Shown piece by piece: positions 4,043-22,557 of a stretch of DNA of 37,522 nt. Under the pieces are notes generated by a model. The model was not told the origin of the DNA. It ran no database searches and saw only the letters and a list, made by a program, of their open reading frames with translations. The DNA is from a virus (taxonomy: Duplodnaviria; Heunggongvirae; Uroviricota; Caudoviricetes), in IMG/VR virus record IMGVR_UViG_3300029068_000003. One strand, 5' to 3'. Both the position numbers and the translations under genes were made by a program. Each line of letters opens with the position of its first letter. The stretch's first letter is position 1.

Positions 4043-5367
4043 TGCACTGGCACCTTCAGAGGGATCACCGGCACAAAGCCGGGATGCGTAATGGCATTAC
4101 GCCGGATAATGTCCGCGTCACGCGCCGCGTTATCAAACCAGGTCGCCGCCAGCACCAGCGCGGGTAAAACCTCATCCGGCGTGCGCTGAATGATCCGAGC
4201 AGACTGTTCAAGGCGCGTGTTGATATCCGCATTCAGATCTGCTTTCACCCGGCGCAGAGCCAGAAACAGCGCATCACTGGTTGTACGGGACAACTCCTTA
4301 TCAATTGCCGTATTCAGTGTGTCGCGAATGTCGGTCAGTTCTTCCCACGTTGGCAGGTCAACCGTGTTTTTTACCGCCGGTGCATTGTTCAGCACCGGAT
4401 GCGTGACGGCAGGCCAGCCGGAGCTCTGCGCGGGTGTTGTTGACTGCCCCACTGCGGCATTCTGCATCACCGCAGAAGTTGTTGGCGCAGGCAATCGGGT
4501 AACGGCATACGCCGCTTCGCTGATTGCAGTCGTACGAAGGGTGCTGGCAACCATGTTACGCTGCTGCGTCGCTGTGGCGGTGGTTTTACTGTCCGTTTTC
4601 CAGACGCCGCGCGGTTGCAAATCGCTGCCGAGGCTGACACAAGAAAGCGTTTTGATCATGGTGACCAGGTCGCTGGCGTTACCATAAAGGCGTTTCCCGG
4701 TACGCCACATTTTCTGCACCTGCTCAACGAAATTTTTGCCTGACGATGGCGGCGGCAGAAGTACCGAGATATCCCCCTGCAACAGCCTGGCGGCATCCGA
4801 TACGGCAGAATCCACCACTTTCATCGCATCAGAAACATACCCCAGCATTATGCTGGCATTACCGATAACGTCGTTCTGCACGAAATCCGCCACACCATCG
4901 ATACTGAAACCGCTGAAGCTGTCACTGATGCAGTCATCCAGTGCAGAACAGGATGACATCAGCGTCTGCGCCGTCGCCGCACCTGATGTGGGGTAAGAGA
5001 GTTCTCCTGCTTCGACAAACTTCAGGTCAAAGCGGACAATACGCCCTTCACTTTTCGATGTGCTGACCCGAACTTCCCCGTCAACACAGACTTTCAGCTC
5101 ACCATATGTCGGGTGGACAAGCGTGCCGGGACCTGGTTTATTCAGCGCTTCAATCAGGCGATCGCGCTGGTCAAAGCAGTCATCTCCCACCACATAAGCC
5201 GTGATGGACGGGCGAAAAGTGATTTTCCCCAGGTCTTCGGTATAGGGTTTGTCGCGGTTCGGGTATTCATGTGTTTCCACACGGCGACCGGTTCCCGCAC
5301 TTTCTTCTTCAACCTTAAACGGCACGCCGCGAAATGACGCGTCCTGAAGCCTGTCTTTCCACGTCAT
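4039..5367 (-). CDS. DNA circulation protein (Mu gp43/N-like)
   Basis: 442 aa ORF beginning MTWKDRLQDASFRGVPFKVEE, N-terminus typical of the Mu N family; located after the tape measure as in Mu-like tails. Confidence 0.6.
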   Translation of the reverse strand: MTWKDRLQDASFRGVPFKVEEESAGTGRRVETHEYPNRDKPYTEDLGKITFRPSITAYVVGDDCFDQRDRLIEALNKPGPGTLVHPTYGELKVCVDGEVRVSTSKSEGRIVRFDLKFVEAGELSYPTSGAATAQTLMSSCSALDDCISDSFSGFSIDGVADFVQNDVIGNASIMLGYVSDAMKVVDSAVSDAARLLQGDISVLLPPPSSGKNFVEQVQKMWRTGKRLYGNASDLVTMIKTLSCVSLGSDLQPRGVWKTDSKTTATATQQRNMVASTLRTTAISEAAYAVTRLPAPTTSAVMQNAAVGQSTTPAQSSGWPAVTHPVLNNAPAVKNTVDLPTWEELTDIRDTLNTAIDKELSRTTSDALFLALRRVKADLNADINTRLEQSARIIQRTPDEVLPALVLAATWFDNAARDADIIRRNAITHPGFVPVIPLKVPVQ

Positions 5368-6050: not shown

Positions 6051-7883
6051 CTACCAAAATCGGGTATAGCCAACATCGTGATTTATATCAATGCCACTGG
6101 AGCGTGTTTCCGTAACCCGCATACCTGGTGGCATATTTATAAATGATACCTTGATCTCACCATCAACTTTTGGCGCGGTAGCTTTATTAATCATGAAGGG
6201 ATTCGGACCTGTGGCACCGGAGGCGTTGTTTGCCTGAGCCGGATCCACCTCCGGATAAGGAGTGTATCCCCGTGGCGGTATTCCCGTCCCATAAGCATCA
6301 TAAGCACCCGCGCCCCACTGCGCCGAGTTAATGGCATCGACCGTGTCACCGGAACTGTCGGTAAACCATTCAATAATCGGCTTCAGCTTATCCCACATAT
6401 CCTGAAACCACTTAACAACCGGTCCCCAGTTATTGATCACCATCCCCAGCGGCGACCAGGCAAAAACCTTCTTCAGAAGTTCCCAGCCAGCCTCAAAATA
6501 AGGACTAATGGTTTCCCAGAGCTTCTTAAAATAAGGTCCGACAACATCCCAGTTAGTGATAATTAATCCCGCAGCCAGGGCTATCGCCGTCGCAATCATG
6601 CCAATCGGCGTCATCGACATGATCCTGCTGACGATACTGATGGCACTGCCCACGCCCATCAATCCCAGTTTCAGAATCGCAAGACCGGCAGCAAGCCCGA
6701 CGACGCCGCGAATAACCCGGGGATTTTCATCCGCAAACTTCGTGAATTTTTCCCCTAACTCCCCCAGCCATTGCGTGATATTTTTGGCGTCACCAGAAAA
6801 TGCGCCGCCAATAGCCGCAAGGCCGTTAGTTGCGGTCCCCGTCATTGCCTCCCACAGGTTGGACAGCGTACCAAGCTGGGCCTGAACACGTTTATTCAGG
6901 CTGGCCTGTTTATTCATCTTCTGCTGGATCTGATCGTAACCATCCTTTCCTTTATCGATCAGAGCATTGACCACCTGAAGGGTTTCGGCATCATCACCAA
7001 ATATTGCCTTAAGTACACCGGTTCGCTTAACGTCGGTCAGTTTTCGCAGCTTTGCCAGTTGCCTGAACATGTTATCAAGACCGCCAAAACTCCCTTTGCC
7101 GTCAGTAAAATCGAGCTGTACCCCGAGTTTCTGGCGGGCCATAACTTTATTAACGCCCCTGATTTTCTTAACGCTTAATCCGGACTGGATAACTTTTCGC
7201 AGGGCATTACCTGCCGACTCCCCGTTCATCCCCATCTGATCCATCATGACGCTGATGGGGGCAAGGCTCTGTGCAGCCTGAAGACCGTCCTTGTTCACCA
7301 TCTTCAGAACAGAACTGGTTTTAGTGAAGAAGGACAACATGTTGGTATCGTCAACGCCCAGATAAAACGCCTTCTGGATAGTGTCGAACAGCCCCATCAT
7401 GTCTTCTGACGCCGTTCCGGTAGCATCCTGCATCTTTGCAGCAAACTCAGCAGCCGCTTCCGGTGTTTTTTTCAGTTGTACCGCAAGATAAGCTGTCGCT
7501 TTACCCACACCGCCAAGAATATTTTCTGCCGGGATCCCCTGACGCACCAGCATCTGCATCATGTTCTGGAAATCAGCCGTTGTACCGGGTAGCTGGTTAC
7601 CCAGGCCAATAGCCAGTTTATTGATGTCCTGAAAGCTCTTTCCGACCTCGCCGTTCGCATCCATCATGGCGACTTTCAGCCCGGTGGCGGCGTTTTCCTG
7701 ATCGGCATAAGATTTCAGGGAAAGCGTCAGACCCGCTGCCAGTCCGCCACCAAGCGCCAGCCCACCCTGTGATGCTTCTTCCGCCTGGCGTTTAAATCCC
7801 CGGATTTTCTTTTGCATTTTCGACAGCGCGGGAGAAAGTCTGTCGACACCGGTGATCAACGCCTTAAGCTCAAATTCAGCCAT
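6051..7883 (-). CDS. Tail tape measure protein
   Basis: 610 aa ORF, ATG start, Ala/Gly/Leu-rich with hydrophobic stretches; between tail chaperone and baseplate genes. Confidence 0.7.
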   Translation of the reverse strand: MAEFELKALITGVDRLSPALSKMQKKIRGFKRQAEEASQGGLALGGGLAAGLTLSLKSYADQENAATGLKVAMMDANGEVGKSFQDINKLAIGLGNQLPGTTADFQNMMQMLVRQGIPAENILGGVGKATAYLAVQLKKTPEAAAEFAAKMQDATGTASEDMMGLFDTIQKAFYLGVDDTNMLSFFTKTSSVLKMVNKDGLQAAQSLAPISVMMDQMGMNGESAGNALRKVIQSGLSVKKIRGVNKVMARQKLGVQLDFTDGKGSFGGLDNMFRQLAKLRKLTDVKRTGVLKAIFGDDAETLQVVNALIDKGKDGYDQIQQKMNKQASLNKRVQAQLGTLSNLWEAMTGTATNGLAAIGGAFSGDAKNITQWLGELGEKFTKFADENPRVIRGVVGLAAGLAILKLGLMGVGSAISIVSRIMSMTPIGMIATAIALAAGLIITNWDVVGPYFKKLWETISPYFEAGWELLKKVFAWSPLGMVINNWGPVVKWFQDMWDKLKPIIEWFTDSSGDTVDAINSAQWGAGAYDAYGTGIPPRGYTPYPEVDPAQANNASGATGPNPFMINKATAPKVDGEIKVSFINMPPGMRVTETRSSGIDINHDVGYTRFW

Positions 7884-8058
7884 GTGTGCGTTTCTCCTGC
7901 TCTATCCTGTTTGCCTGACTGACCAGCAAGGGAATTTCACTGATCGGCATATTCAGCAATTCGAAGGGATTAATGCGCCAGTAACTGGCGCAGTCAAAGA
8001 AGCGATCAGTGAGGTATTCAGCCGTCAGGCCTGGAGGAAAAAACCAGCCACAAGCCAC
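7876..8058 (-). CDS. -1 frame extension of the tail assembly chaperone (G/GT-like programmed frameshift product, C-terminal part)
   Basis: ORF in the -1 frame relative to 8025..8294, overlapping its 3' end; slippery heptamer U UUU UUC on the mRNA (complement of 8037-8043) sits in the overlap; the ORF-track start is GTG, not an independent ATG. Confidence 0.5.
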   Translation of the reverse strand: MACGWFFPPGLTAEYLTDRFFDCASYWRINPFELLNMPISEIPLLVSQANRIEQEKRTHG

Positions 8059-8294
8059 GCCGCAGCATTCAGGTCTGCCGGAGACATCTGGTCGACAGAG
8101 TTTTGCGGCACTTTCGCCAGCCGCACAATGTATTTCGATACCACATGCGCCAGAAGTCTGACTGACTCATCCTGATTCATCTGGTAGGGATACCCCAGCT
8201 CGCGGACATCTTTCCCGGTGGGCTCATCAAACTCCAGTACGGAGAGTGTCTCGCCATGAGCAGTAATCGGTTTCTTTAACTCAAGCTCTTTCAT
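8025..8294 (-). CDS. Tail assembly chaperone (Mu gp41-like)
   Basis: 89 aa ORF, ATG start, between tail tube and tape measure; carries the slippery site near its 3' end. Confidence 0.55.
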   Translation of the reverse strand: MKELELKKPITAHGETLSVLEFDEPTGKDVRELGYPYQMNQDESVRLLAHVVSKYIVRLAKVPQNSVDQMSPADLNAAAWLVAGFFLQA

Positions 8295-8650
8295 TACTGG
8301 TAATCCCCTTCTTCACCGTGGAACTCAAGATCAACCGTGCCTTCTTCGGCATTATGGTTCGCTTCGCCGTGCAGCCAGGCAGACGACAGTACATAGACCT
8401 GACCGTTCGCCAGCTCGGCAGTGATGGTCATCTCATCAGACGAGGTGATTTTGCTCACCGGAAAATTCTTCGGCACCTTGAAGGTCCCTTTGACATAGGG
8501 CGCACGGTGAGTTTCCTTGCGGTCCACTGAACCGTCCAGGCCGATGATGTCATCATTGACCGTCCTGTTCATGGGCACCTCAATGCCGCCGGTCAGCGAT
8601 AGCTGCTGACCGTCAATTTTGAAATAACAGGTTCCCCCGATACGGGCCAT
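8294..8650 (-). CDS. Tail tube protein
   Basis: 118 aa ORF, ATG start, immediately downstream of the sheath gene. Confidence 0.6.
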   Translation of the reverse strand: MARIGGTCYFKIDGQQLSLTGGIEVPMNRTVNDDIIGLDGSVDRKETHRAPYVKGTFKVPKNFPVSKITSSDEMTITAELANGQVYVLSSAWLHGEANHNAEEGTVDLEFHGEEGDYQ

Positions 8651-17962: not shown

Positions 17963-18313
17963 TTACTTCAGCCGTTCACGGGCCGTCTTCGCCTTATGAC
18001 ACGGCCAGCACAGGCTCTGCAGATTACTGTCTGCATCGGTGCCGCCATGCGCTTTAGGGATGATGTGATCAACGGTTTTCGCCTCACGCACCACACCAGC
18101 ACGCAGGCACAACTGGCACAGGCCTTTGTCACGCTTCAGGACACGTTCACGGATAACATCCCATTTCGAACCATAACCGCGCTGGTGTCGGGACTGGCCT
18201 GGCTTGTATTGCTTCCAGCCTTCGCTTTTGTGGCTTTCGCAGTAGCCTGACGGGTCAGTAGTGGTATGGCGGCAGCCGCGAACACGGCAGGCTTTTGGGG
18301 TTCGTGGTGGCAT
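17963..18313 (-). CDS. HNH endonuclease (terminase-associated)
   Basis: Cys/His-rich C-terminus (CQLCLRAG...VDHIIPKAHGGTDADSNLQSLCWPCHKAK); ORF-track start is GTG at 18376; in-frame ATG at 18313 has AAGAGGA upstream, so start set there. Confidence 0.75.
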   Translation of the reverse strand: MPPRTPKACRVRGCRHTTTDPSGYCESHKSEGWKQYKPGQSRHQRGYGSKWDVIRERVLKRDKGLCQLCLRAGVVREAKTVDHIIPKAHGGTDADSNLQSLCWPCHKAKTARERLK

Positions 18314-18463
18314 TGCATAATCCTCTTGGGTGGTTCGCGTGCGATACGTGGCATCCTTCTCAGAATCGAATCGCACTCCACTCCGGTTTTGCCATAAACG
18401 ATCTTTTATGCTTCGCTGGATGTAGTTGATAGTTGTTGAAACTCAATGAACAGGAGTTCACAA

Positions 18464-18799
18464 ATGAATAGTTATGAATGGGAATGGCTTTTAAACAAAG
18501 ATGACACCCTATGCTTTTTCCCCGTAGGCCATTCTGTAGAAGGTAATTACAAAATTCACTTTGAGTTGAGCGGTAGTTGTAACCTTAGAGTCTCAGATGC
18601 TGAATGGCATGGTAAACCTGTACTGCTGTTCGAATACTTCGATGAAGATGATGACCGCCCTGCAATAATCGAAATATTAGAAACAACCACTACAACTGTG
18701 GAGGCGATGATCGCACATCTGAATAGTATCGATAGTATTTACCATGAACCGATTTACAAAGCGGTTTACGAGTGGGCCGTAAAGTTTTTCTATCGATGA
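18464..18799 (+). CDS. Hypothetical acidic protein (cassette gene 1)
   Basis: AT-rich plus-strand ORF opposite to the flanking late genes; AGGAG 7 nt upstream of ATG 18464 (track ATG 18446 lacks an SD); acidic tract EYFDEDDDRP; no recognisable domain. Confidence 0.5.
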   Translation: MNSYEWEWLLNKDDTLCFFPVGHSVEGNYKIHFELSGSCNLRVSDAEWHGKPVLLFEYFDEDDDRPAIIEILETTTTTVEAMIAHLNSIDSIYHEPIYKAVYEWAVKFFYR

Positions 18800-18842
18800 T
18801 ACTTCGTTATCTTGCTGGCATTCACAATACCTTTACATACTA

Positions 18843-19469
18843 ATGACATGCCAGCACAATACTGTCACTTACAACCGTTCGGATTACCTAGAGAAAAGTA
18901 TGATTCAGGATTTACTGATCGAAGCAATTAGTCACGATAGGATGCATAAAAAGTTAAATGAACTGAATTGCTACTTCTACAATCGCAAACATGAAACTCA
19001 AATACGTGATGAGTTAGTTGTTATTCTCAATCAAATCAGCACACTAACTGCTTTAAGTGAGCATCCAAAACTCGGTATCGGCGCTGTTGACATATCACTT
19101 TATAACCAGTCGATATTAACGTCTGAACATAATGGCAATGTTGCAACCATCGAGATCAAACACCATTACCCAAAGGATTTACTTTATCGGCAAGTTCAAG
19201 AAGACATCATTTTCGATATTTCAAGAGTAATAGTTTCACCAACTACACATTTTATCCATATAATCCAGCAAAGAACTAGGATTAATACTCCTTCTTTTGG
19301 CCAAGTGAAATTCCTTGAACGTGATGCAAGTGATATCAGCACTTATGTGCAATGCCTTGAAGAGCTAAGTTCCTTCCCCAGTATCTTTCATAAAAAAAGT
19401 ATATGTATTGAGGTACTTGGTGAAATTATGTCGACATATACCTTTAACGTATATTCATTTGACAACTGA
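18843..19469 (+). CDS. Hypothetical protein (cassette gene 2)
   Basis: 208 aa AT-rich ORF co-oriented with gene 1; alternative in-frame ATG at 18900; no recognisable domain. Confidence 0.45.
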   Translation: MTCQHNTVTYNRSDYLEKSMIQDLLIEAISHDRMHKKLNELNCYFYNRKHETQIRDELVVILNQISTLTALSEHPKLGIGAVDISLYNQSILTSEHNGNVATIEIKHHYPKDLLYRQVQEDIIFDISRVIVSPTTHFIHIIQQRTRINTPSFGQVKFLERDASDISTYVQCLEELSSFPSIFHKKSICIEVLGEIMSTYTFNVYSFDN

Positions 19470-19490
19470 TTAATTTGACAATTTTATTGC

Positions 19491-19748
19491 TTAATGGTTA
19501 GTTCTCTCTGCATCTATTTTACGAATATCAGCTTTATCCCGATTGCAGTTAGCCAGTGCAGACAACAGACTCACATTCAGCTCCAGGCTGGCACCATAAG
19601 TCAGAGGATTTGGTATGAACGGTACAGGTGTTTCAGAAGTCAGACTAGTCGGTAATGTTGTAGCCGGAGTGCTCACGTAAACTGTCCGCGTACTTCCGCA
19701 ACCGCTCAGCAGCGGCAGCAGGCACAAGGCGTGCAGCACAACCATCAT
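19491..19748 (-). CDS. o-spanin (Rz1-like outer-membrane lipoprotein)
   Basis: In the +1 frame overlapping the 3' part of the Rz-like gene; starts MMVVLHALCLLPLLSGCGS with a lipobox (LSGC); Pro/Thr-rich. Confidence 0.5.
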   Translation of the reverse strand: MMVVLHALCLLPLLSGCGSTRTVYVSTPATTLPTSLTSETPVPFIPNPLTYGASLELNVSLLSALANCNRDKADIRKIDAERTNH

Positions 19749-20025
19749 CCGCAACAGCCACTTTGATATCTTTCTGGGTTCTCTGTGACTCCAGTGCGAT
19801 CTGCTGTTTTGCATGCTGGTTAACCTCTATAACTGTATTGACGATTTGCAGTGATTGCAGGACGTTACGGGTAATGGCTGTTGCAGATTCAGCATTTTGT
19901 ACAGCCTCATCAGCACGTTTCTTTTCGTGCTGATATTTGCTGTAGTAGTGGTTGGCAGACCAGATGAAAGAACCGATGACAGTAAAGAAGAATGCAGCGA
20001 TAACCAGCTTATAGCTCAACTTCAT
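19645..20025 (-). CDS. i-spanin (Rz-like)
   Basis: 126 aa ORF with ATG start, N-terminal TM segment then charged coiled-coil-like region; directly downstream of the endolysin. Confidence 0.6.
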   Translation of the reverse strand: MKLSYKLVIAAFFFTVIGSFIWSANHYYSKYQHEKKRADEAVQNAESATAITRNVLQSLQIVNTVIEVNQHAKQQIALESQRTQKDIKVAVADDGCAARLVPAAAAERLRKYADSLREHSGYNITD

Positions 20026-21145: not shown

Positions 21146-21667
21146 ATGATGAACAAATTAGCACGCTTATTATTAACAGCAAGCTCAATTGCACCTGTTT
21201 GCGCAACTCTATTTTTTATTGGATATGTAAAAGATACGGTTTGGCTGATGCAATATAGCTTATGCGTTGGCATAGCAAGTTGGTTATTAGCAATAGGCCT
21301 GATTCAATATGCTGAGAAACAACTTGAACCTCTGACAAAAAATATTAGTTCAGTTTCTCCCGCTAACAAAGAAGTAACTAATTATTTCTTAAGCTATTTA
21401 TTCCCTCTCCTAGGAACAGACTCTATTGCTGAAAATAAAGCATATGCGTTATTCTTTTATTTGTCATTGTTATTTTACATCAGCTTTTCCGAGAACTATA
21501 ACTTTAACCCAGTATTGTCACTTATCGGTTATAAATTTTACGAAGCTGAAGATGACACCGGCGTAGGTTTTGTATTGATTTCTAAATCAGTCATTACTGA
21601 TATTAAAGATATCAAATTTACAGTTATTCAATTAACAGACTACACATTTCTACATGTTAAAGGATAA
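21146..21667 (+). CDS. Small integral membrane protein with about 4 TM helices (KwaA-like architecture, unverified)
   Basis: 173 aa AT-rich ORF with hydrophobic segments (LLLTASSIAPVCATLFFIGYV; WLMQYSLCVGIASWLLAIGLIQYA; YALFFYLSLLFYISF); opposite strand to flanking Q and lysis genes. Confidence 0.55.
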   Translation: MMNKLARLLLTASSIAPVCATLFFIGYVKDTVWLMQYSLCVGIASWLLAIGLIQYAEKQLEPLTKNISSVSPANKEVTNYFLSYLFPLLGTDSIAENKAYALFFYLSLLFYISFSENYNFNPVLSLIGYKFYEAEDDTGVGFVLISKSVITDIKDIKFTVIQLTDYTFLHVKG

Positions 21668-21672
21668 TAACC

Positions 21673-22557
21673 ATGGCACTTTTTGCAGTAATAGATAATA
21701 CAATTGCAACGAGAATTGTTAGAGTCGAACTTGATGCAACAGCAAGTACTTCTGTTACGGCCATTTTCCAACAACAGCGTCAATATTTTGAAAGTCATCA
21801 TAACAATATGATACCATTCTATGCCGGTTATACACCAAAACATAGTGAGTGTTTTGAAATACAAAACTTTACTGATTCTGCACGCCTGATTGACGCAGTC
21901 AATAGGCCTACCGCCGTGCCTGTCTGGGATCCCAGCCAAATTGATATTGGTTATATTAAAGCATTATTTGTTGGTGTTGACGCGCCAGCAAACCCCAATA
22001 TTATTGCGCTACAAACCTTCAACAAAAAACAAATCTTAGATACCTCAAAATCATTCTTTGGAAAGCTTTTTGCAAGCAAAACTACCTTTAGTAAAGCTAA
22101 TAGCATCGGTTTTAATGTTGATGATAAACTAGTTGCAATAATTATCAATGATACAATACGATTTAAGAGTTTCTTTAATCTAAGAAGCATTTTTGACATG
22201 TCGTCCTATTTTTCTGCTGCTACTGACCAAGAACTTAATGCATTTAGTCAACTTAGTGTATTTTCTACTCCCCAAGGTTTTGATCTAAAATCCGTTGCAG
22301 ATACAGTGATAAGAAATAAAGTAACACTAATAAATCAGACTGGGATGCTAACACCCCAAAATATGTCAAAGTTTAAATCCGAAGCTGCTAAAGTCAATTT
22401 CCCCTTACAAACCATAATAGTTGGCGGTGTTGAGAAAATTGTCATGCCTTCATCAAAAAAAGAAATAAAAGCCCTTCTTGACTTTCTTGAGGAAGACATT
22501 TGGATTTCAGGGATAAGTGGAAGACGCTTTAAATCGAATTCAAAGCGCCCAATATAA
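21673..22557 (+). CDS. Soluble partner protein of the membrane protein (KwaB-like size, unverified)
   Basis: 294 aa AT-rich ORF starting 5 nt after the upstream stop, with an SD overlapping the upstream gene end (operon); no recognisable catalytic motif. Confidence 0.55.
   Translation: MALFAVIDNTIATRIVRVELDATASTSVTAIFQQQRQYFESHHNNMIPFYAGYTPKHSECFEIQNFTDSARLIDAVNRPTAVPVWDPSQIDIGYIKALFVGVDAPANPNIIALQTFNKKQILDTSKSFFGKLFASKTTFSKANSIGFNVDDKLVAIIINDTIRFKSFFNLRSIFDMSSYFSAATDQELNAFSQLSVFSTPQGFDLKSVADTVIRNKVTLINQTGMLTPQNMSKFKSEAAKVNFPLQTIIVGGVEKIVMPSSKKEIKALLDFLEEDIWISGISGRRFKSNSKRPI

What the first reader, a model, noticed from the sequence alone, without database searches (positions are those of the whole stretch)
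18446..19469. Unrecognised AT-rich two-gene cassette between the HNH/cos region and the spanin genes, transcribed against the late operon
Two co-oriented plus-strand ORFs (about 111 and 208 aa) have no motif I recognise. They are sharply AT-rich, divergent from HNH and convergent with Rz1, which marks them as an acquired module rather than part of the late operon. The first protein is small and acidic, the second larger; this would fit a toxin/immunity, anti-defence or exclusion pair.
Basis: seen in the sequence. Interest (0 to 1): 0.6.

Follow-up and report, generated by a model that had tools for sequence, protein, structure and literature searches.

The report
Two independent prophage cargo genes, one nuclease
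The AT-rich insert in this E. coli prophage is real, but it is two separate accessory genes stacked in a variable cargo slot and not a toxin/immunity pair; the larger gene encodes a rare, uncharacterised restriction-endonuclease-like protein whose distant relatives sit in bacterial defence islands, so it is a plausible but untested anti-phage nuclease.

The parts
18314..19490 (.). Acquired AT-rich island (GC 0.381) filling the variable cargo slot between the HNH start codon and the Rz1/LysC stop codon
   Evidence: Homology to six sibling E. coli prophages ends at 18313 and resumes at 19483-19529. An empty site exists in L110, with 26 bp between HNH and lysC. Composition.
18360..18395 (-). Recombination scar: an 11-codon remnant (MAKPEWSAIRF*) of a foreign small-terminase (terS) 5' end; motif CTCCGGTTTTGCCAT at 18381-18395
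   Evidence: In L094/L096/L098/L099 the ORF1 homologue abuts an intact terS that starts MAKPDW..., with the junction CCAGTCCGGTTTTGCCATAAATTATCC. The window keeps this junction although its real neighbour is HNH.
18464..18799 (+). ORF1: 111-aa acidic cytoplasmic protein (pI 4.56), phrog_14397, function unknown. An alternative upstream ATG at 18446 would give 117 aa
   Evidence: AGGAG ribosome-binding site. PHROG match 6.8e-79 starting at residue 7 of the long form. PGAP WP_001089762.1. 13 clusters in 5.8 billion proteins. pN much lower than pS. The AF2 model is poor (pLDDT 56; five strands plus two helices). No TM segment.
18800..18899 (+). ORF1-ORF2 spacer holding the only sigma-70-like candidate promoter for ORF2 (TTTACA-17-CACAAT, 18832-18860), bracketed by an inverted repeat at 18808-18821/18848-18861
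   Evidence: Consensus scan (the number of sites is not above the shuffled expectation). Inverted repeat. The spacer is shared only with L034/L035.
18900..19469 (+). ORF2: 189-aa predicted PD-(D/E)xK (restriction-endonuclease-like) nuclease, phrog_12494. Putative active site K30 (18987-18989), E32 (18993-18995), D64 (19089-19091), E85 (19152-19154), K87 (19158-19160). The longest ORF from 18843 (208 aa) is probably not the real start
17963..18313 (-). Left flank: HNH endonuclease gene of the HNH/P27-type terminase packaging module (not part of the island)
   Evidence: PGAP annotation transferred from L001 (offset 1621); ORF list.
19491..20025 (-). Right flank: Rz1/LysC (19491-19754) embedded in Rz/DUF2570 (19645-20025), the end of the lysis cassette (not part of the island)
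   Evidence: PGAP annotation transferred from L001; ORF list.

Best explanation
The island is a stack of two independent accessory ('moron') genes in a hypervariable cargo slot between the lysis cassette and the packaging genes of a temperate phage. That is the same position as bor in phage lambda (my own knowledge). It is not a two-component system. ORF2 is a small stand-alone PD-(D/E)xK nuclease of a rare, undescribed family. It is most likely made in the lysogen and cuts incoming foreign nucleic acid, probably DNA, giving the prophage and its host protection against competing phages. No dedicated methyltransferase partner is present, so how it spares host DNA is unknown. ORF1 is a separate small acidic cytoplasmic protein that arrived through its own recombination event, bringing a foreign terS 5' remnant with it. 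Its function is unknown and ORF2 does not need it. SHOWN: island borders, composition, coding status, separability of the genes, variability of the slot, the scar, the fold and motif of ORF2, and the defence-island context of distant relatives. INFERRED: nuclease activity, expression in the lysogen, the defence role, and the target. Component confidences: the genes are independent, about 0.85; ORF2 has the PD-(D/E)xK nuclease fold, about 0.85; ORF2 has a defence or exclusion role, about 0.5.
For: Separability: co-occurrence only in the lineage at 95% identity or more. ORF2 directly abuts terS with no upstream gene in L007, L010, L045 and L048, and ORF1 occurs alone in L094-L099. L034/L035 are natural ORF1 replacements with ORF2 intact. 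A third small gene (75 aa) pairs with ORF2 in Enterobacter and with ORF1 homologues in L101/L103. Variable slot: of 1,259 E. coli genomes with homologues of the flanking genes, only 75 carry the cassette. Siblings show an empty site or five other unrelated cargo genes. The ORF2 position between lysis and small-terminase genes is kept across phages with Terminase_2, Sf6-type and P27-type packaging modules. Nuclease. Defence association: 5 of 8 distant relatives lie next to type I R-M operons (L106, L109, L117) and/or WYL/WCX regulators (L107, L109, L117, L119). In the metagenome scan, 27 of 46 loci with at least 4 kb of flank, and 7 of 16 eligible 60%-identity clusters, have a WYL regulator within a few kb, often with a YAcAr SLOG gene. 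WYL/WCX (BrxR/CapW) regulators co-localise with phage-defence islands (PMC9122601, PMC9122588). The same prophage carries a complete Kiwa system in an equivalent antisense AT-rich island. There is precedent for methylase-less PD-(D/E)xK defence proteins in E. coli prophages (PMC9519451).
Confidence: 0.5

Rival explanations
1. One reading: ORF1 and ORF2 form an obligate two-gene system (toxin/immunity, or nuclease plus inhibitor) in which the small acidic ORF1 neutralises or controls the ORF2 nuclease.
For: The genes are adjacent and co-oriented, and ORF1 is small and acidic. ORF2-family genes are often preceded by some small gene: a 75-aa protein in Enterobacter, a 100-aa triple-repeat protein in L109/L117, and a 106-aa protein in L106. 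That could hint at interchangeable small partners.
Against: There is no co-occurrence outside one near-clonal lineage. ORF2 stands alone next to terS in L007, L010, L045 and L048. ORF1 homologues stand alone in L094-L099. L034/L035 lost ORF1 and kept ORF2 intact. The gap is 100 bp and the genes are not coupled. The upstream small genes are unrelated to ORF1 (hmmsearch E above 0.3).
Confidence: 0.07
2. ORF2 is a selfish free-standing homing-type endonuclease that cuts a conserved site at or near the terS 5' end of cassette-less phages and spreads, with its flanks, by recombinational repair. On this view the scars and the fixed position reflect homing and not host benefit.
For: The insertion point next to the terS or HNH start is constant across otherwise different phages. 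Closely related prophages differ by presence or absence of the gene. The terS 5' DNA (CCAGTCCGGTTTTGCCAT) is conserved beside the gene, and terS-5' remnants bound the cassettes.
Against: Non-nuclease genes (ORF1, the 75-aa gene) occupy the same slot with the same scars, so the scars reflect ordinary recombination at a module boundary. ORF2 is antisense to the lytic operon, unlike typical phage homing-endonuclease genes (my own knowledge). Distant relatives lie in chromosomal R-M and WYL islands, not in phages. The E. coli copy sits beside HNH, where the putative target is only a remnant.
Confidence: 0.1
3. ORF2 serves the phage's own lytic cycle, for example host-DNA degradation, recombination-intermediate processing or a packaging aid, and does not act in the lysogen.
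Against: It is antisense to the late transcript. Most sibling phages with the same lysis and packaging genes lack it (75 of 1,259 genomes), so it is dispensable. The prophage already encodes RusA and an HNH packaging nuclease. ORF2 is inactivated by a frameshift or an IS in some otherwise intact-looking prophages. Neither protein occurs in 50,697 deposited phage genomes. Distant relatives are in non-phage contexts.
Confidence: 0.1
4. A sub-variant of the main model: ORF2 is an orphan sequence-specific restriction enzyme whose self-protection is outsourced to a resident host methylase (for example Dam or Dcm, which I recall are common in enterobacteria) or to scarcity of its site, so that it cuts unmethylated incoming DNA.
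Against: The Pfam hits are sub-threshold and found in single members. No methyltransferase is consistently linked: none lies within 8 kb in the Enterobacter and Klebsiella loci, and the window's phage Dam-like gene is about 6 kb away in the early region. Phages grown on the same hosts would carry the same methylation.
Confidence: 0.1
5. For ORF1 alone: it is an independent small effector, for example an acidic DNA-mimic anti-restriction protein or a superinfection-exclusion protein, unrelated in function to ORF2.
For: It is strongly acidic, with a conserved FEYFDEDDDRP patch. It is conserved under purifying selection. It occurs alone in the same slot in other phages.
Against: There is no homology or reliable fold (pLDDT 56; Pfam, PADLOC, NCBIfam and PDB profile searches all negative). 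Net charge alone is weak evidence.
Confidence: 0.12

Closest known systems
Methylase-less PD-(D/E)xK-containing defence proteins found in E. coli prophages by functional selection (the PD-T4, PD-lambda and PD-T7 series; Vassallo et al. 2022, PMC9519451)
   Same: They are carried on E. coli prophages. They are small proteins whose only recognisable feature is a distant PD-(D/E)xK motif. They lack a cognate methylase (only 1 of 11 has one), and many give direct immunity.
   Different: ORF2 matches no PADLOC v2 model; from memory, PADLOC v2 includes these systems. It has not been tested against any phage. Its family is rarer (76 clusters in 5.8 billion proteins).
Minimal type IIP restriction endonucleases (R.SwaI 5tgq; also EcoRV, BglI, NgoMIV)
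   Different: Sequence identity is 11-17%. There is no adjacent methyltransferase. Foldseek is not significant. Specificity is unknown.
Pfam PF14281 PDDEXK_4 (a PD-(D/E)xK superfamily family, often embedded in type I R-M loci)
   Same: One ORF2-family member (P0089) passes the family's gathering score (24.1 against 22.3 bits). PDDEXK_4 genes are neighbours of distant ORF2 relatives in L106, L107 and L109. hhalign puts the D...ExK motifs in register.
   Different: The window protein and 31 of 32 aligned members do not hit PDDEXK_4. Profile-to-sequence hhalign is not significant. This is a sister family at best.
Lambda bor-type morons (genes in the slot after Rz/Rz1, transcribed against the late operon and expressed in the lysogen; my own knowledge)
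   Same: Same slot, same antisense orientation, deviant base composition, and presence/absence polymorphism among related phages.
   Different: Bor is an outer-membrane lipoprotein. ORF1 and ORF2 are cytoplasmic (no hydrophobic segment) and unrelated to it. Expression in the lysogen has not been shown here.
Defence islands regulated by WYL/WCX (BrxR/CapW) regulators (PMC9122601, PMC9122588, PMC11662680)
   Same: Distant ORF2 relatives lie 1-4 kb from a divergently oriented wHTH-WYL-WCX gene in 7 of 16 eligible clusters.
   Different: The window prophage and all enterobacterial prophage loci have no WYL regulator nearby. In those loci the gene is stand-alone.

Membership tests
PD-(D/E)xK nuclease superfamily (ORF2) | Core alpha-beta-beta-beta-alpha-beta restriction-endonuclease fold | tested here: met
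PD-(D/E)xK nuclease superfamily (ORF2) | Catalytic D...(D/E)xK motif on strands 2 and 3, conserved across the family | tested here: met
   D64 lies at the start of strand 2, and E85-x-K87 lies in strand 3. K30, E32, D64, E85 and K87 are the only invariant columns in 32 sequences down to about 20% identity.
PD-(D/E)xK nuclease superfamily (ORF2) | Significant match to a curated superfamily profile | tested here: inconclusive
   The window protein has no Pfam or NCBIfam hit. Family member P0089 passes the PDDEXK_4 gathering score. Two members hit HSDR_N at 1.4e-4, and single members hit PDDEXK_9, DpnII-MboI and Tox-REase-7 weakly. A profile search against PDB sequences found nothing.
PD-(D/E)xK nuclease superfamily (ORF2) | Metal-dependent phosphodiester cleavage | not testable with these tools
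   This needs purified protein and active-site mutants.
Type II restriction-modification system | Cognate DNA methyltransferase gene adjacent to the endonuclease gene | tested here: not met
   No MTase lies in the island or next to ORF2 homologues in any prophage locus. The hsdM/hsdS genes next to distant relatives belong to complete type I systems with their own HsdR.
Type II toxin-antitoxin or toxin/immunity pair (ORF1+ORF2) | The two genes are inherited together across lineages | tested here: not met
   They are adjacent only at 95% identity or more. All diverged homologues of either gene lack the other. L034/L035 lost ORF1 and kept ORF2.
Type II toxin-antitoxin or toxin/immunity pair (ORF1+ORF2) | Tight operon organisation (overlap or short gap, single promoter) | tested here: not met
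   There is a 100-bp spacer holding its own promoter-like site and an inverted repeat.
Known anti-phage defence systems (PADLOC-DB v2.0.0) | Profile match to a component of a catalogued system | tested here: not met
   There are no hits for ORF1, ORF2 or four distant ORF2 relatives. As a positive control, the neighbouring KwaA and KwaB hit at 1.9e-83 and 2.3e-150.
Phage moron (independently acquired accessory gene) | Deviant base composition and presence/absence polymorphism between otherwise syntenic phages | tested here: met
   GC 0.381 against 0.49-0.56. Sibling prophages have an empty site or alternative cargo, with breakpoints at 18313 and about 19483-19529.
Phage moron (independently acquired accessory gene) | Own promoter and terminator allowing expression from the repressed prophage | tested here: inconclusive
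   There is only a 9-of-12 sigma-70-like site upstream of ORF2, none upstream of ORF1, and no terminator after ORF2. Site counts are not above the shuffled expectation. RNA-seq is needed.
Free-standing homing endonuclease | Cleaves the cognate empty site and is inherited preferentially | not testable with these tools
   Only indirect data are available: the presence/absence polymorphism is met, but non-nuclease genes share the slot and the scars, and relatives occur in non-phage islands.

The most novel reading that the evidence does not exclude
The ORF2 family is a previously unrecognised minimal single-protein immune nuclease (about 190 aa) that tells foreign from self DNA without a dedicated methylase. 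The non-homologous small genes that often sit immediately upstream of it (ORF1 here, a 75-aa protein in Enterobacter, a 100-aa triple-repeat protein next to type I R-M loci) would be interchangeable modulators, such as inhibitors, sensors or specificity factors, making this a modular 'nuclease plus swappable small partner' defence architecture.
Probability: 0.12. Interest if true: 0.65.

Novelty: new member of a known kind. Interest (0 to 1): 0.38.

Why it matters
If ORF2 is an active defence nuclease, it would add a very small, methylase-independent restriction-like enzyme family to the prophage immune repertoire. It is carried by about 1.5% of complete E. coli genomes and by Enterobacter, Klebsiella, Citrobacter, Yersinia, Pectobacterium and Proteus prophages. 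The locus also shows how morons pile up. Each cassette in the lysis-to-packaging slot carries a remnant of a terS 5' end, so the terS start region appears to act as the recombination anchor through which cargo moves between unrelated phages. More practically, the analysis shows that adjacency plus AT-richness is not enough to call a two-gene system. Comparative genomics separated the two genes cleanly.

Tried and rejected
- Pfam, NCBIfam, PADLOC and PDB-sequence profile searches of both proteins gave nothing usable for the window proteins.
- megablast and tblastn against 50,697 deposited phage genomes gave no match for either gene.
- The ORF1 structure prediction had low confidence (pLDDT 56), so I did not run a fold search on it.
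- Foldseek of the ORF2 model against PDB and BFVD found no significant hit. The AFDB library was unavailable.
- I first read the conserved CATGTATAATCC motif upstream of ORF2 homologues as a promoter with a perfect -10 box. I rejected that as independent evidence, because on the other strand it is the terS Shine-Dalgarno and start codon (AAGGATTATACATG).
- I tested whether the alternative slot occupants (197 aa, 184 aa) or the 75-aa Enterobacter protein are cryptic relatives of ORF2 or ORF1. They are not.
- I tested whether the small genes upstream of distant ORF2 relatives are ORF1 homologues. They are not.
- hhalign of the ORF2 profile against single PDDEXK_4 proteins was not significant, although the motif was in register.
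- The accessions are absent from the searched literature and from the DefensePredictor supplements. DUF6508 does not appear in the literature.
- Rfam and repeat scans of the region found nothing relevant.
- HsdM, HsdS and HsdR probes found no type I R-M genes in the 80 metagenome loci. The R-M link seen in 3 of 8 earlier loci is therefore not general; the WYL link is the more frequent one.

Full report
**Observation**

The maximal ORFs are 18446-18799 (117 aa) and 18843-19469 (208 aa). The probable real starts are ATG 18464 and ATG 18900.
- ATG 18464 has an AGGAG box upstream and gives 111 aa.
- ATG 18900 gives 189 aa.
- Both PHROG profiles start at those residues.
- PGAP annotates them that way in an almost identical record (WP_001089762.1 and WP_000613838.1).
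- Every homologue from another genus starts MIQxLL.

The GC content of the island 18314-19490 is 0.381. The terminase/HNH side is 0.558, the lysis side 0.488 and the whole window 0.497.

The genes are divergent from HNH (17963-18313, minus strand). They are convergent with Rz1/LysC (19491-19754, minus strand), so they lie antisense to the late operon.

Both are real genes. Against homologues at 60-72% identity, non-synonymous differences are 0.16-0.24 per site and synonymous differences 0.67-0.89. dN/dS is about 0.11-0.125 where dS is not saturated.

**Setting**

The window is about 98% identical to an e14-like prophage integrated next to icd in E. coli. The prophage has HNH, a P27-type small terminase, an HK97-type head, a contractile tail and a lambda-type lysis cassette.

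The 1.1-kb region occurs in 80 of 5,426 complete E. coli genomes. It occurs in none of 50,697 deposited phage genomes, at either DNA or protein level.

**The island is acquired, and the slot is variable**

I queried HNH + island + Rz/Rz1 against all E. coli genomes. 1,259 genomes have homologues of the flanking genes, but only 75 carry the island.

Sibling prophages with the same flanks differ at this site:
- HNH and lysC are 26 bp apart in L110, an empty site.
- Others hold a different single cargo gene: a GrlR-family protein of 106 aa, or unknown proteins of 197, 145, 184 and 74 aa.
- None of these has a PADLOC hit.

Homology to six siblings ends exactly at the HNH start codon (18313) and resumes at 19483-19529.

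Inside the island's left edge, at 18360-18395 on the minus strand, is an 11-codon remnant (MAKPEWSAIRF*) of a small-terminase start. In other phages (L094, L096, L098, L099) the ORF1 homologue abuts an intact terS that starts MAKPDW, with the same junction sequence. ORF1 therefore arrived from a phage with a different packaging module and brought a piece of that terS with it. L101 and L103 show a degenerate terS remnant between a 75-aa gene and the ORF1 homologue. The array seems to grow by repeated recombination at the terS 5' end.

**The two genes are not a pair**

I collected 104 loci and looked for both proteins in each.
- The two genes are adjacent only in the E. coli lineage at 95% identity or more.
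- All diverged ORF2 homologues lack ORF1. These are 49-71% identical and come from Enterobacter, Klebsiella, Citrobacter, Yersinia, Proteus and viral contigs.
- All diverged ORF1 homologues (50-72% identical) lack ORF2.
- ORF2 homologues directly abut terS with nothing upstream in L007, L010, L045 and L048.
- ORF1 homologues stand alone in L094-L099.
- A third small acidic gene (75 aa) precedes ORF2 in Enterobacter and precedes ORF1 homologues in L101/L103.
- In L034/L035, close relatives of the window, homology resumes 26 nt before the ORF1 stop codon. ORF1 has been replaced by an unrelated minus-strand gene, while ORF2 is full-length at 95% identity. This is a natural ORF1 deletion that ORF2 tolerates.
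- Within the window the genes are 100 bp apart.

**What ORF2 is**

The family is rare and unannotated.
- It has 26 clusters by single-sequence search and 76 by profile search, out of 5.8 billion proteins.
- It has 42 representatives out of 1.84 billion.
- It occurs in 4 of 185,579 species-representative genomes.

The AlphaFold model is confident (pLDDT 85, pTM 0.85). It has the order helix, three strands, helix, strand.

In an alignment of 32 members down to about 20% identity, the only invariant residues are K30, E32, D64, E85 and K87. D64 opens strand 2 and E85-x-K87 lies in strand 3, which is the canonical PD-(D/E)xK arrangement.

At the sequence level:
- Family member P0089 passes Pfam's gathering score for PDDEXK_4 (24.1 against 22.3 bits).
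- Two others hit HSDR_N at 1.4e-4.
- hhalign places the motif in register with a PDDEXK_4 protein, but without significance.

Against this, Foldseek finds nothing significant, and the window protein itself hits no curated profile. I put the nuclease-fold assignment at about 0.85. Catalytic activity is inferred.

**What ORF2 probably does**

It has no adjacent methyltransferase in any prophage locus and matches no PADLOC model.

Its position is constant: between the lysis cassette and the small terminase, antisense to both. This holds in phages with Terminase_2, Sf6-type and P27-type packaging genes.

Distant relatives lie outside phages, in conflict-type neighbourhoods.
- L109 is embedded in a type I R-M operon, next to PDDEXK_13 and PDDEXK_4 genes.
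- L106 and L117 are immediately upstream of hsdM-hsdS.
- L107, L109, L117 and L119 are next to WYL/WCX regulators.

A metagenome scan added 80 loci. 27 of the 46 with at least 4 kb of flank have a WYL/WCX gene 1-4 kb away, almost always divergently oriented. After clustering the nucleases at 60% identity, 7 of 16 eligible clusters show the link. One cluster holds 51 loci, so the raw count overstates independence.

In that large lineage the unit is WYL/WCX, then a YAcAr SLOG protein, then variable genes including RHS-repeat proteins, then the nuclease. The unit lies between housekeeping genes.

WYL/WCX regulators of the BrxR/CapW type are documented companions of phage-defence islands (PMC9122601, PMC9122588, PMC11662680).

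The same prophage carries a complete Kiwa system (KwaA 1.9e-83, KwaB 2.3e-150) in a second AT-rich antisense island at 21146-22557.

Functional selection in E. coli has already shown that methylase-less proteins with faint PD-(D/E)xK motifs, mostly in prophages, are a common kind of defence (PMC9519451).

Together these make a defence or exclusion nuclease the best-supported function. I put it at about 0.5, because nothing has been tested and lysogenic expression is not shown. There is only a 9-of-12 promoter-like site at 18832-18860, and no terminator.

**ORF1**

ORF1 is a 111-aa acidic protein (pI 4.56) with a conserved FEYFDEDDDRP patch and no hydrophobic segment. It belongs to a family of 13 clusters. 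The fold prediction is unreliable (pLDDT 56) and no profile matches. It behaves as an independent cargo gene. Its function is unknown. An acidic mimic or exclusion role is speculation.

**Rivals**

- The pair model is contradicted by the co-occurrence data.
- A homing-endonuclease reading fits the fixed insertion point and the scars. It is weakened because non-nuclease genes share both features, the gene is antisense to the lytic operon, and relatives live in chromosomal islands.
- A lytic-cycle helper role is weakened by dispensability (75 of 1,259 genomes) and by decay in some copies: a frameshift in an A7 run in L037, and an IS3-family insertion at codon 38 in L065-L067. The antisense orientation also counts against it.
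- An orphan REase protected by host methylation is a possible sub-variant with only faint support.

**Unexplained**

ORF2-family genes are often preceded by some small gene (111, 75, 100, 106 or 145 aa). These genes are not homologous to one another, except that the L109 and L117 triple-repeat proteins are 53% identical to each other. Whether this is meaningful or just stacking is open.

**Verdict**

The 'two-gene system' reading is not supported. ORF2 is a new, rare member of the PD-(D/E)xK superfamily and a reasonable single-gene defence candidate. ORF1 is an orphan. This is a new member of a known kind, of moderate interest.

Noticed in passing
window 21146-22557 (+): A complete Kiwa anti-phage system (KwaA 21146-21667, KwaB 21673-22557) occupies a second AT-rich (GC 0.345) island between the holin and antiterminator Q genes, also antisense to the late operon.
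   Followed up: yes
window 18360-18395 (-): An 11-codon remnant (MAKPEWSAIRF*) of a foreign small-terminase 5' end lies upstream of ORF1. Similar degenerate remnants separate stacked cassettes in L101 and L103, suggesting that the terS start region is the recombination anchor for cargo exchange.
   Followed up: partly
L170:6430-6801, L154:2301-3509 and neighbours; L141-L198: In a large metagenomic lineage the ORF2-family nuclease sits in a conserved island: WYL/WCX regulator, YAcAr SLOG protein, RHS-repeat proteins and small genes, the nuclease, a DUF7738/DUF6892 protein and a metallophosphatase. The island lies between an M20 peptidase and YggS/PriA. It is possibly an undescribed WYL-controlled conflict system.
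   Followed up: partly
P0099, P0112 and relatives (L105:6001-6936): An Acinetobacter subgroup of the nuclease family (about 310 aa) is fused to a C-terminal DUF6508 domain. That domain has no literature in the searched library.
   Followed up: partly
L109:5680-5982 and L117:4637-4939: A 100-aa protein made of three repeats of about 33 residues, each carrying the motif NGKVELRKESGTIIRTI, sits immediately upstream of the nuclease gene in two loci linked to type I R-M. It recurs in at least six metagenome loci.
   Followed up: partly
L065-L067 (about 7117-8312) and L037 (about 7500): ORF2 is inactivated in some prophages. In L065-L067 an IS3-family element is inserted at codon 38, followed by a second copy of terS+HNH. 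In L037 there is a 1-nt frameshift in an A7 run near the C-terminus.
   Followed up: partly
L001:4835-7450 versus window 5240-5247: The annotated sister prophage (strain 7.1994/NIST0056) has an IS66-family (ISCro1) insertion splitting the DNA-circularization gene. The window lacks it.
   Followed up: no
window 18808-18821 / 18848-18861: A 14-nt inverted repeat (86% complementary, 26 nt apart) brackets the candidate ORF2 promoter. It is not conserved in L034, which has a different short inverted repeat at the same place. It could be an operator or a chance match.
   Followed up: no
L007:8773-9650 and L048:3611-4162: In Klebsiella and other loci the same cargo slot also holds a ClpP-family protease gene downstream of the ORF2 homologue, another unexplained passenger.
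   Followed up: no
L133, L158, L160, L168, L172, L177, L182, L184, L185, L188, L198: Many metagenome contigs end within 1 kb downstream of the nuclease gene. This suggests a repeat or hypervariable segment that breaks assemblies just after it.
   Followed up: no
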